Part shown: positions 13,345 through 14,826 of the stretch, piece by piece
Layout: each line of letters begins with the position of its first letter
How positions within the stretch are numbered: the first letter of the stretch is position 1
Source of the DNA: a bacterium
GTDB lineage: Bacteria; Pseudomonadota; Gammaproteobacteria; GCA-002705445; GCA-002716945
NCBI GenBank assembly: GCA_029979505.1
Contig: JAPOHH010000001.1
Location: forward strand, 55,034-119,033
Reading direction: 5' to 3'
DNA length: 64,000 bases
Notes under the pieces: model-generated
What the model was told of the DNA's origin: nothing
What the model saw: only the letters and a program-made list of their open reading frames with translations
Databases searched by the model: none
Program-made: the position numbers and the translations under genes

Positions 13345-13395
13345 AAAACTTTCTTCTTCAGGTATAATCTGATTATAGCATAAAGGAGTTGTGTC

Positions 13396-14826
13396 ATTTC
13401 TAATAAGAGACTTTCAATTCATGGCCAATGGTCATCAAAAATACTATTTATATTTGCTGCAACAGGCTCTGCTGTTGGTTTAGGTAATATTTGGAAATTC
13501 CCATGGATGACGGCTGAAAGTGGGGGAGGTGCATTTGTTCTTATCTATGTCTTGAGCGTTATTTTTCTTGCTTTGCCTATTATGGCAGCAGAAATCCTTA
13601 TTGGTAAAAGGGGTAAACAAAACCCAATTAATAGCATGAGAACATTATCATATGAATCTAGTTATTTTTATAAAAATCAAACTGATAAAAATCTCAAACG
13701 AACAATTAAAGTGAAAGAAAGCTTTAAAGATAAAGAAATATTTTCAAACTGGGAATTAGTTGGCTGGATGGGGATTTTAGCAGGCATATTTATCTTATCC
13801 TTTTATAGTGTAATTGCAGGCTGGACAATCTCTTATATCCTTAAATCGATAACTGGATCATTTACATTGATTACTGCAGCTGGATCAAGTTCAAAGTTCC
13901 AGGCATTTATTTCTGATCCTGAAAAGCTAATCTTGTGGCATACAATCTTTATGATTTTAACATGTTATATAGTATCAAAAGGTGTGAAAAGCGGCATAGA
14001 GAAAGCAATTAAATTCTTAATTCCGGGATTATTTTTAATATTAATAGGTTTGGCGATTTATGCATCTTCACTGTCTGGCTTTTCTGAGGCTATGACATAT
14101 TTTTTCATTGCAGATTTTGAAAAAATTAACAGCTCAGTTGTATTATCAGCCATGAGCATGGCTTTTTTTTCTTTAAGTATAGGAATGGGCTCCTTGATGG
14201 TTTACGGGTCATATCTCCCTGATGATACTTCCATATTTCAAGTTAGTTCCGCTGTAGCATTCTCTGACACGCTTGTAGCTATTTTGGCAGGTATAATAAT
14301 ATTTCCTATTGTTTTCACATATAATTTAGATCCTAATACTGCTGGTCCAGGACTGATATTTGAGACACTGCCTATTGCCTTTGGAGCTATGCACTACGGT
14401 TCAATTATATCAGCAGCTTTTTTCATATTATTGTTTTTTGCGGCTATAACATCATCTATTTCTCTAATTGAACCAGCAATTACTTTTGTTGTAGAAAAAT
14501 ATTATGTATCAAGATTATATGCAACGAATGTACTAGGTGTCGTCACATGGGTTCTAGGGATATTTACAGTACTTTCATTTAATAGCCTTTCAGATTTTAC
14601 ATTTTTTGGTATGACTATTTTTGATAACTTAGACTATTTAACTTCTAAAATTATGTTACCTCTTGGCGGGTTGCTAATGGCGTTATTTGTTGGCTATGTA
14701 GTAAAAAAATCATTTGTACTACAAGAATTAAATTCAAATACAATGCTCATTCAATTTTGGTTTATAATACTCAAAATATTATCACCTTTATTATTAGTCT
14801 TGATATTTATCCAAGGGATTTTATAA
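13396..14826 (+). CDS. Sodium-dependent transporter, SNF (neurotransmitter:sodium symporter) family; probable non-ATG (ATT) start
   Basis: TM1 motif [26 protein letters not shown] lies upstream of the first in-frame ATG (13507). The frame is open back to TAA at 13381 with no ATG, GTG or TTG. AAGGAG (13383-13388) sits 7 nt before ATT at 13396. Confidence 0.75.
   Translation: [476 protein letters not shown]

What the first reader, a model, noticed from the sequence alone, without database searches (positions are those of the whole stretch)
13381..13510. SNF-family transporter appears to initiate at AUU (or carries a start-codon lesion)
The essential TM1 Na+-site motif ([26 protein letters not shown]) is encoded upstream of the first in-frame ATG (13507). 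The frame is open back to the TAA at 13381 and contains no ATG, GTG or TTG. A near-perfect SD (AAGGAG, 13383-13388) sits 7 nt before ATT at 13396, giving a natural-looking N-terminus (M)[13 protein letters not shown]... A second ATT at 13417 is also preceded by AAGAGA. AUU initiation is very rare in bacteria (infC and pcnB in E. coli) and is usually regulatory.
Basis: seen in the sequence. Interest (0 to 1): 0.55.

Follow-up and report, generated by a model that had tools for sequence, protein, structure and literature searches.

The report
Conserved AUU start codon in transporter
A sodium-coupled transporter gene in a group of AT-rich marine bacteria appears to start at the rare codon ATT (ATA or ATC in relatives) instead of ATG, a trait kept across the whole group, so most database versions of the protein are wrongly cut short.

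Summary
Its alternative (a start-codon lesion or base-call error) is rejected.

The NSS/SNF transporter frame is open from 13384. It has no in-frame ATG, GTG or TTG before 13507. AAGGAG (13383-13388) lies 7 nt before ATT 13396.

- Six independent metagenome assemblies carry the identical 5' region.
- In 49 distinct orthologues of a monophyletic low-GC marine gammaproteobacterial clade (60-100% identity), the triplet 6-9 nt after a conserved Shine-Dalgarno (SD) core is ATT (37), ATA (9), ATC (2) or TTG (1).
- In 89 outgroup homologues it is ATG (85), GTG (2) or TTG (2), mostly at the same codon position.
- Codons between the ATT and the internal ATG are invariant in amino acid but vary at third positions, so they are translated.
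- They encode TM1 and its GLGN motif.
- No other gene in the window needs a non-canonical start. The neighbouring dnaQ uses ATG or GTG in 31 of 32 of the same genomes.

This is a new member of a known kind (infC, pcnB, ebpA). The likely effect, not tested, is weak, IF3-sensitive translation offset by a strong SD.

91 of the 120 best database clusters are called from the internal ATG and lack TM1.

The parts
13340..13368 (+). Promoter-like site, TTCATA-17 nt-TATAAT. It implies a transcript start near 13375 and a leader of about 21 nt.
   Evidence: Consensus scan, 10 of 12 matches. GGTATAAT is retained in close orthologues. This is a prediction only.
13383..13388 (+). Shine-Dalgarno sequence AAGGAG (core AGGAG 13384-13388), 7 nt upstream of the ATT.
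   Evidence: Sequence. A 4-nt or longer SD core lies 6-9 nt before the ATT/ATA/ATC codon in 49 of 49 clade sequences, against 35 of 89 outgroup sequences.
13396..13398 (+). ATT, the inferred initiation codon (decoded as fMet).
   Evidence: It is the only near-cognate codon at SD spacing. ATT, ATA or ATC is conserved here in 48 of 49 clade sequences. In-frame stops 0-2 codons upstream in several orthologues leave no other option. It is the positional equivalent of the outgroup ATG. NCBI annotates the orthologue MEC8077555.1 from this ATT.
13396..13506 (+). N-terminal 37 codons that database gene calls omit. They cover the short cytoplasmic N-terminus and TM1 with the GSAVGLGN motif.
   Evidence: The amino acids are invariant while third-position entropy reaches 1.9 bits over 31 orthologues. 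Query residues 8-84 align to MhsT residues 10-86, and 11-74 to LeuT 3-66.
13417..13419 (+). Second ATT. This is an internal Ile codon (Ile8), not the start.
   Evidence: Ile is invariant here in the clade and in ATG-starting outgroups. Upstream codons are conserved as protein.
13507..13509 (+). Internal ATG (Met38). This is the start chosen by automatic gene callers, giving a 439-aa product without TM1.
   Evidence: 91 of the 120 best database clusters begin MTAE(S/N)G.
13396..14826 (+). Full coding sequence of the NSS/SNF Na+-dependent transporter, 476 aa.
   Evidence: Pfam PF00209 and NCBIfam NF037979. The best solved relative is MhsT 4us3, E=1.9e-94.
14829..15957 (+). Context: the tightly packed downstream genes ratA-like SRPBCC (14829-15266), rnfH (15259-15504) and fur (15505-15957), probably co-transcribed with the transporter.
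   Evidence: Pfam. Gaps are 2 nt, an 8-nt overlap and 0 nt. No terminator-like site follows the transporter stop. Synteny is conserved. Co-transcription is inferred.

Best explanation
The transporter gene is intact, and translation starts at AUU 13396. Initiation is directed by the strong Shine-Dalgarno AAGGAG 7 nt upstream, on a short leader of about 21 nt. The product is a full-length 476-aa NSS/SNF Na+-coupled (probably amino-acid) transporter.

The AUU/AUA/AUC start is an inherited, gene-specific trait. An ancestral AUG was replaced once at the base of a low-GC marine gammaproteobacterial clade. The non-canonical codon has been kept since, drifting among AUU, AUA and AUC, always with a strong SD.

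Shown here: the sequence facts, conservation, translation of the upstream region, positional equivalence with the outgroup ATG, and gene specificity.

Inferred from what is known in E. coli and Enterococcus: AUU/AUA/AUC starts are decoded by initiator tRNA, are discriminated against by IF3, and give low yield (1-2% of AUG with reporters). On that basis the codon would hold synthesis of this membrane protein at a low, IF3-sensitive level, partly offset by the strong SD. This may let the first cistron be made sparingly while ratA, rnfH and fur on the same transcript are translated from their own ATGs.

The confidence given (0.8) is for the start site and its conservation. For the 'kept weak on purpose' part I would put it at about 0.45.
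For: 1. Sequence.
2. Not an error: six assemblies from different projects have a 173-nt 5' region identical to the window.
3. Conservation: of 49 distinct clade sequences, the SD-proximal triplet is ATT in 37, ATA in 9, ATC in 2 and TTG in 1. All 49 have an SD core, and 37 have no in-frame canonical codon upstream of the conserved His.
4. In-frame stops directly upstream bound the start: TGA-ATT in L025, TAG-GTC-ATT in L006-L008, and TAA-GAC-ATT-ATA in L011, L012, L018 and L030.
5. The upstream region is translated. Asn -6, Arg -4, Ser -2, Ile -1 (counted upstream from the conserved His), the His itself and onward are invariant, with high third-position entropy.
6. Outgroup: 85 ATG, 2 GTG and 2 TTG, with 59 of 89 at exactly codon -8. 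A neighbour-joining tree with Fitch parsimony gives one ATG-to-ATT/ATA/ATC change at the base of a monophyletic clade.
7. Gene specificity: the neighbouring dnaQ in the same genomes starts with ATG or GTG in 31 of 32. Among 202 long ORFs in clade loci, only this gene is recurrently startless. No other window gene needs a non-canonical start.
8. TM1 aligns to MhsT and LeuT TM1.
9. NCBI already annotates one orthologue from the ATT.
10. Precedent and yields: the 64-codon study in E. coli puts AUA/AUC/AUU at 1-2% of AUG. EbpA starts at ATT with the annotated ATG 120 bp downstream. IF3 discriminates against AUU.
Against: - There is no direct evidence for the N-terminus or for expression level. The organisms are uncultured.
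- Two sublineages have gained a canonical codon one codon upstream of the ATT, 4 nt after the SD: ATG in L090 and GTG in L213/L214. A further sublineage has an ATG at -3. A canonical start is therefore tolerated, and selection for a weak start is not absolute.
- G makes up only 8.5% of fourfold-degenerate third positions in this gene. The absence of ATG at the site is therefore not by itself strong statistical evidence of selection against ATG.
- In vitro, AUA, and in some extracts AUU, can work nearly as well as AUG. 'Low expression' may not hold in these bacteria.
- IF3 and infC of this lineage could not be examined.
Confidence: 0.8

Rival explanations
1. Neutral or compensated drift. AT-biased mutation changed ATG to ATA or ATT in the clade ancestor, and a strong SD compensated. 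The codon then persisted because the remaining expression is sufficient. Under this reading the start site is the same as in the best explanation, but the codon has no regulatory purpose.
For: - The switch coincides with the low-GC clade (GC 0.27-0.35 against 0.34-0.66 in the outgroup).
- An SD core is present in 100% of clade sequences against 39% of the outgroup, which is the signature of compensation.
- Canonical codons have reappeared next to the ATT in two sublineages without any other change.
- G is rare at silent sites, 8.5%.
Against: - Other low-GC homologues keep ATG (L104, L105, L146, L150, L157, L160 and L193, GC 0.34-0.38).
- Neighbouring genes in the same genomes keep ATG or GTG.
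- The trait has survived divergence down to 60% protein identity in free-living marine bacteria, where selection is generally taken to be efficient. That last point is my inference, not a test.
Confidence: 0.35
2. Lineage-wide relaxed start-codon selection. Under this reading these bacteria use AUU, AUA or AUC as ordinary start codons in many genes, so this gene is not special.
For: One other case was seen: the dnaQ of MAG L005 has ATC where relatives have ATG. Only about 64 kb plus 7-kb flanks per genome were examined.
Against: - No other gene in the window needs a non-canonical start.
- dnaQ has a canonical start in 31 of 32 genomes.
- Of 202 long ORFs in clade loci, 25 have a long startless leader. 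Of those, 20 are this gene, 1 is the L005 dnaQ, and 4 I judged to be shadow or overlap frames.
Confidence: 0.08
3. Initiation at the second ATT (13417), giving (M)HGQWSS...
For: It is a near-cognate codon preceded by purine-rich AAGAGA. A variant with ATG at this codon exists (P0002; L086-L088).
Against: - This Ile is invariant in outgroups that start at an ATG seven codons upstream of it, that is at codon -8 relative to the His.
- Asn -6, Arg -4 and Ser -2 upstream of it are conserved as amino acids with synonymous changes, so they are translated.
- AAGAGA is the Lys-Arg codon pair. Arg is CGN in the outgroups, so no SD is conserved there.
- The conserved GGAG lies 28 nt away.
Confidence: 0.04
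4. The database gene call is right. Translation starts at ATG 13507 and yields a 439-aa protein without TM1.
For: It is the first canonical codon. 91 of 120 database clusters are called this way.
Against: - No SD precedes it. The upstream bases are the codons for KFPW.
- The 37 upstream codons are under strong purifying selection at the protein level.
- They encode TM1 with the GLGN motif, which aligns to MhsT and LeuT TM1. From established NSS structural knowledge, TM1 contributes to the Na+ and substrate sites.
Confidence: 0.02
5. A sequencing or assembly error, or a recent start-codon lesion (a pseudogene in the making).
For: None beyond the absence of a canonical start in this one window.
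Against: - The sequence is identical in six independent assemblies.
- ATT, ATA or ATC is conserved in 48 of 49 distinct orthologues spanning 60-100% identity.
- The full-length frame is intact, with purifying selection throughout.
Confidence: 0.01

Closest known systems
Enterococcus faecalis ebpA (ATT start; annotated ATG 120 bp downstream), PMC4447247
   Same: The layout is nearly identical. A rare ATT with an upstream ribosome-binding site is the real start. Annotation had picked the first ATG about 110-120 bp downstream. The gene product is an envelope protein. In ebpA the ATT was shown to lower expression.
   Different: ebpA was verified by mutagenesis and lacZ fusions, whereas nothing here has been tested experimentally. 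ebpA encodes a Gram-positive pilus tip protein. Here the gene is a polytopic transporter, and the trait is shown by comparison across a deep clade.
E. coli infC (AUU or AUC start, IF3 autoregulation)
   Same: The AUU-class start codon is phylogenetically conserved rather than sporadic, and switches among AUU-class codons are tolerated.
   Different: In infC the gene product itself (IF3) discriminates against the codon, which closes a feedback loop. A transporter has no such direct loop. Any IF3 dependence here would be a passive read-out of IF3 activity.
E. coli pcnB (AUU start limits poly(A) polymerase synthesis)
   Same: An inefficient start codon is used to keep a potentially harmful protein scarce. 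This is my recollection of Binns & Masters 2002. The codon itself is cited.
   Different: According to the 64-codon study, the pcnB start alternates with AUG, GUG and UUG across phyla. Here the AUU/AUA/AUC state is nearly fixed within one clade and AUG is nearly fixed outside it.
Borrelia burgdorferi pncA (bbe22), which has a non-canonical start
   Same: This is another case where a rare non-canonical start caused a long-standing annotation error (abstract seen).
   Different: It is a single-species, plasmid-borne gene. I read only the abstract.

Membership tests
NSS/SNF sodium:neurotransmitter symporter family (Pfam PF00209; LeuT fold) | Significant match to the family profile above the curated cut-off. 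| tested here: met
   PF00209: 150.9 bits against a cut-off of 27, E=6.6e-44. NF037979: 128.5 bits against a cut-off of 50.
NSS/SNF sodium:neurotransmitter symporter family (Pfam PF00209; LeuT fold) | TM1 with the conserved G-x-A-V-G-L-G-N motif (the unwound TM1 region that contributes to the Na+ and substrate sites in LeuT). | tested here: met
   [13 protein letters not shown] is encoded at 13462-13500, upstream of the internal ATG. It aligns to Mhs[13 protein letters not shown] and LeuT GNAVGLGNFLRFP. The role of these residues is taken from established structural knowledge and was not tested here.
NSS/SNF sodium:neurotransmitter symporter family (Pfam PF00209; LeuT fold) | End-to-end homology with a solved bacterial NSS transporter. 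| tested here: met
   MhsT 4us3, E=1.9e-94. Query 8-84 and 118-473 align to MhsT 10-86 and 91-448, with an extra segment of about 30 aa between them.
NSS/SNF sodium:neurotransmitter symporter family (Pfam PF00209; LeuT fold) | Na+-dependent transport activity and substrate. | not testable with these tools
   Needs uptake assays. The amino-acid substrate is only suggested by the similarity to MhsT.
Bacterial genes initiated at AUU-class codons (infC, pcnB, ebpA type) | No in-frame AUG/GUG/UUG upstream of indispensable, conserved coding sequence. | tested here: met
   37 of 49 orthologues have no canonical codon at all before the conserved His.
Bacterial genes initiated at AUU-class codons (infC, pcnB, ebpA type) | A near-cognate AUU/AUA/AUC codon at functional spacing from a Shine-Dalgarno sequence. 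| tested here: met
   AAGGAG-7 nt-ATT in the window. An SD core lies 6-9 nt upstream in 49 of 49 orthologues.
Bacterial genes initiated at AUU-class codons (infC, pcnB, ebpA type) | The non-canonical codon is conserved in orthologues, so it is not a sporadic lesion. | tested here: met
   48 of 49 clade sequences have ATT, ATA or ATC. The clade is monophyletic with a single origin.
Bacterial genes initiated at AUU-class codons (infC, pcnB, ebpA type) | The N-terminus or initiation site has been mapped experimentally. | not testable with these tools
   No proteomic or ribosome-profiling data were available. The organisms are uncultured.
Bacterial genes initiated at AUU-class codons (infC, pcnB, ebpA type) | Expression is limited by the codon and is sensitive to IF3. 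| not testable with these tools
   Inferred from E. coli and E. faecalis work. infC was not present in any held sequence.

The most novel reading that the evidence does not exclude
The AUU/AUA/AUC start is an actively maintained translational control device. Like infC, it would make synthesis of this transporter a read-out of IF3 activity, and so of growth state or temperature, in an abundant uncultured marine gammaproteobacterial clade. It would also set the output of the first cistron of the transporter-ratA-rnfH-fur transcript independently of the cistrons behind it. That would make it one of very few deeply conserved non-canonical start codons known outside infC.
Probability: 0.25. Interest if true: 0.65.

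Novelty: new member of a known kind. Interest (0 to 1): 0.5.

Why it matters
1. **Biology.** Well-supported non-canonical bacterial start codons are few, and deeply conserved ones fewer still; infC is the classic case. Here a transporter shows a clean pattern: AUG outside the clade and AUU/AUA/AUC inside it, always paired with a strong SD. This gives a natural system for asking whether weak start codons are selected for, or merely tolerated and compensated.

2. **Annotation.** Standard gene callers allow only ATG, GTG and TTG. They therefore truncate this protein or place its start wrongly in almost all metagenomic catalogues. 91 of the 120 closest clusters lack TM1 and 13 more start inside TM1. 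The transporter would then look non-functional, or be mis-modelled, in surveys of marine bacterial nutrient uptake. Homology-anchored start calling fixes this, as NCBI's pipeline did for MEC8077555.1.

Tried and rejected
- **Sequencing error or lesion:** rejected. The 5' region is identical in six assemblies and the codon is conserved across the clade.
- **Out-of-frame starts with frameshifting:** rejected. The TTG at 13389 and GTG at 13391 lie 0 and 2 nt after the SD and are absent from orthologues such as L001 and L004. The out-of-frame ATG at 13421 is just the conserved His-Gly codons (CAT GGN) and runs into a stop.
- **Riboswitch, leader RNA or structured 5' UTR:** no Rfam family matches near the gene. 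Folding 13374-13450 gives z = -1.0, so there is no meaningful structure.
- **A second non-canonical start in the window:** NAD kinase (15960-16979, minus strand) has 60 startless codons, but it has a good GGGAG-6 nt-TTG start giving MKKFKKILIY. Ten further frames were checked against Pfam, and for nine of them the domain begins downstream of a canonical start. The tenth (36127-36564, minus strand) matched no family. For sdhD the local alignment runs 2 residues past an ATG that overlaps the sdhC stop.
- **A new genomic context as the cause of the start-codon switch:** rejected. The smpB(-)-transporter-ratA-(rnfH)-fur order is shared by the clade and by ATG-starting outgroups.
- **Low GC alone as the cause:** rejected. 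Several homologues from contigs of GC 0.34-0.38 keep ATG.
- **Naming the organism:** failed. A RecA search returned only 'Gammaproteobacteria/Pseudomonadota bacterium' MAG labels. The lineage may be SAR86-like, but that is my guess and was not tested.
- **infC of the lineage:** not present in any sequence held.
- **Literature:** no paper on this gene's start codon was found. One search failed on syntax.
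Full report
**1. The observation**

Reading the window confirms every coordinate in the finding.
- TAA lies at 13381-13383.
- AAGGAG lies at 13383-13388, followed by a 7-nt spacer and ATT at 13396.
- A second ATT lies at 13417.
- The first in-frame canonical start is the ATG at 13507, 37 codons after the first ATT.
- The frame runs to the stop at 14824-14826.

The ORF lister returns only the 439-aa ATG-initiated version. Translated from the ATT, the protein is 476 aa and is an SNF/NSS transporter (Pfam PF00209, E=6.6e-44; NCBIfam NF037979).

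A promoter-like TTCATA-17-TATAAT lies at 13340-13368. It would give a leader of roughly 21 nt. The window has about 30% GC.

**2. This is not an error**

The exact 439-aa product is found on contigs from several independent projects (Logan DRR337548, SRR28326316 and SRR28326326; ENA ERR2092775; JGI 3300061618 and 3300061629). All six have a 173-nt 5' region identical to the window, including the ATT.

**3. Orthologues**

A scan of one genome per species returned 31 orthologous loci from marine Gammaproteobacteria MAGs and SAGs with 60-91% identity. A pattern scan of metagenome contigs added more clade members and many outgroup homologues. I anchored all sequences on the conserved His of the motif SIHG(Q/E)WSS and counted codons upstream from it.

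| | Low-GC clade | Outgroup |
|---|---|---|
| Distinct sequences | 49 | 89 |
| Identity to the window protein | 60-100% | 36-55% |
| Contig GC | 0.27-0.35 | 0.34-0.66 |
| Start triplet | ATT 37, ATA 9, ATC 2, TTG 1 | ATG 85, GTG 2, TTG 2 |
| SD core of 4 nt or more | 49 of 49 (AGGAG in 32) | 35 of 89 |

- In the clade, the start triplet is the one lying 6-9 nt after the SD core.
- The single TTG case (L161) arises from a 1-nt insertion in a contig of about 3x coverage.
- 37 of the 49 clade sequences have no in-frame ATG, GTG or TTG anywhere between the upstream stop and the His.
- In several species an in-frame stop sits 0-2 codons before the ATT/ATA/ATC codon: TGA-ATT-ATC in L025, TAG-GTC-ATT in L006-L008, and TAA-GAC-ATT-ATA in L011, L012, L018 and L030. 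This leaves no other possible start.
- In the outgroup, 59 of 89 starts fall at exactly codon -8, the same position as the ATT.

A neighbour-joining tree of 107 full-length proteins recovers the low-GC sequences as one clade. Fitch parsimony gives a single ATG-to-ATT/ATA/ATC change at its base. Within the clade there are then three ATT-to-ATA changes and one ATT-to-ATC change.

**4. The upstream region is translated**

Over 31 distinct orthologues, Asn -6, Arg -4, Ser -2, Ile -1, the His, Gly, Trp, Ser-Ser, and [21 protein letters not shown] are invariant or nearly so as amino acids. Their third codon positions carry up to 1.9 bits of entropy. Upstream of codon -9 this pattern disappears, and only the GGAG remains conserved.

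Residues 8-84 align to residues 10-86 of MhsT (4us3, overall E=1.9e-94), and residues 11-74 align to LeuT residues 3-66. This covers TM1 with its GLGN motif and TM2. A protein starting at Met38 would lack TM1 altogether. From established NSS structural work, TM1 contributes to the Na+ and substrate sites.

**5. Which ATT?**

The second ATT (13417) encodes an Ile that is invariant in the clade and also in outgroups that start at an ATG at codon -8, seven codons upstream of it. The codons before this Ile are conserved as protein. The purine run before it is the Lys-Arg codon pair. The start is therefore the first ATT, at 13396.

**6. Gene-specific or genome-wide?**

- In the window, this frame has the longest startless leader among frames I take to be real genes. 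The exceptions are NAD kinase, which has a good GGGAG-6 nt-TTG start, and two short frames (34358-34792 and 45459-45857) that I judged to be shadows of other frames from overlap alone.
- Ten further frames with moderately long leaders were checked against Pfam. For nine, the domain begins downstream of a canonical start. One (36127-36564, minus strand) matched no family.
- In the flanks of the clade loci, 25 of 202 long ORFs have a leader of 25 codons or more. Twenty of these are this gene, four I judged to be shadow or overlap frames, and one is the dnaQ of a single MAG.
- As an internal control, the dnaQ-type exonuclease two genes upstream starts with ATG (27) or GTG (4) in the same genomes. 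The one exception is ATC in L005.

The trait is therefore specific to this gene as far as about 64 kb plus flanks can show.

**7. Exceptions and limits**

- Two sublineages have gained a canonical codon one codon upstream of the retained ATT, only 4 nt after AGGAG: ATG in L090 and GTG in L213/L214.
- Another sublineage has an extra ATG at -3. One variant has ATG in place of Ile -1. Both keep the SD plus ATT.
- G makes up only 8.5% of fourfold-degenerate sites in this gene. The lack of ATG at the start site is therefore not on its own strong statistical evidence of selection against ATG.
- Several other homologues from contigs of GC 0.34-0.38 keep ATG, so base composition alone does not explain the switch.
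- The gene order smpB(-)-transporter-ratA-(rnfH)-fur is shared by the clade and the outgroup, so a new genomic context does not explain it either.

**8. Mechanism**

Shown: the start site, by comparative inference, and the universal pairing of a weak start codon with a strong SD.

Inferred from the literature:
- AUU, AUA and AUC initiate at about 1-2% of AUG with reporters in E. coli.
- AUU is discriminated against by IF3, which is the basis of infC autoregulation.
- In E. faecalis ebpA, an ATT start with a mis-annotated ATG 120 bp downstream lowers expression.

The most likely reading is that the codon keeps synthesis of this membrane protein low and IF3-sensitive, with the SD securing start-site selection. 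The downstream ratA, rnfH and fur cistrons are tightly packed (gaps of 2 nt, an 8-nt overlap and 0 nt) and have their own ATGs. No terminator-like site follows the transporter gene. A weak first-cistron start could therefore uncouple its yield from theirs. This last step is speculation.

The main rival for the question of why the codon persists is compensated neutral drift under AT-biased mutation.

No RNA structure or Rfam element is involved.

**9. Comparison with known cases and novelty**

The phenomenon belongs to the known class of AUU-type start codons: infC, pcnB, ebpA and Borrelia pncA. I found no paper on this gene. NCBI's pipeline annotates one orthologue, MEC8077555.1, from the ATT, so homology-aware annotation already handles it.

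By contrast, among the 120 closest protein clusters:
- 91 begin at the internal Met and lack TM1;
- 13 begin inside TM1 at a chance TTG or similar codon;
- 1 is annotated from the ATT.

I rate this a new member of a known kind, of moderate interest. It is a clean, deep and gene-specific case with a practical consequence for annotation, but the mechanism is not new and nothing has been tested experimentally.

**10. Not resolved**

- The organism's name. Only 'Gammaproteobacteria bacterium' labels were returned. A SAR86-like identity is my untested guess.
- The transporter's substrate.
- The start codon of infC in this lineage.

Noticed in passing
window 13648-13746 (transporter residues ~85-117): A Lys/Asn-rich segment of about 30 residues ([33 protein letters not shown]) sits between TM2 and TM3. 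It has no counterpart in MhsT, where query 84 aligns to residue 86 and query 118 to residue 91. It is present but variable in clade orthologues.
   Followed up: partly
L005:1036-1680 (start near 1039-1044): In one MAG the neighbouring dnaQ-type exonuclease reads TAA ATT ATC AGA TAC..., where 31 relatives have ATG or GTG at that codon. The next canonical codon is 105 codons in. This is either a second, sporadic AUC start or an assembly error.
   Followed up: partly
window 12898-15957: The gene order smpB(-), NSS transporter, ratA-like SRPBCC, rnfH, fur is conserved in the clade and in distant ATG-starting homologues. The four plus-strand genes are separated by 2 nt, an 8-nt overlap and 0 nt. 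The transporter therefore looks like the first cistron of an operon that ends in fur.
   Followed up: partly
L090:288-306; L214:293-306: Two sublineages independently gained a canonical codon directly upstream of the retained ATT, only 4 nt after AGGAG: ATG in L090 and GTG in L213/L214.
   Followed up: yes
window 15960-16979 (minus strand): The NAD kinase frame is open for 60 codons before its first canonical codon. That codon, TTG at 16799, has a GGGAG SD 6 nt upstream and gives a normal MKKFKKILIY N-terminus. The long open leader is chance overlap with the divergent cinA promoter region.
   Followed up: yes
window 14148-14171: A terminator-like hairpin plus T-run (AGCCATGAGCATGGC TTTTTTTT) lies inside the transporter coding sequence. 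It encodes the conserved SAMSMAFFS segment, so it is probably a by-product of the codons rather than a terminator.
   Followed up: no
window 17367-18404 (recA): RecA proteins 97-98% identical to the window's 345-aa RecA are called as 381 or 385 aa in databases. This suggests inconsistent N-terminal calls, with an extension into the cinA-recA junction, in close relatives.
   Followed up: no
window 4434-4817: The sdhD-like frame has its first ATG at 4506, overlapping the sdhC stop by one base (TAATG). This is typical of translational coupling. The Pfam alignment starts 2 residues before that ATG.
   Followed up: partly
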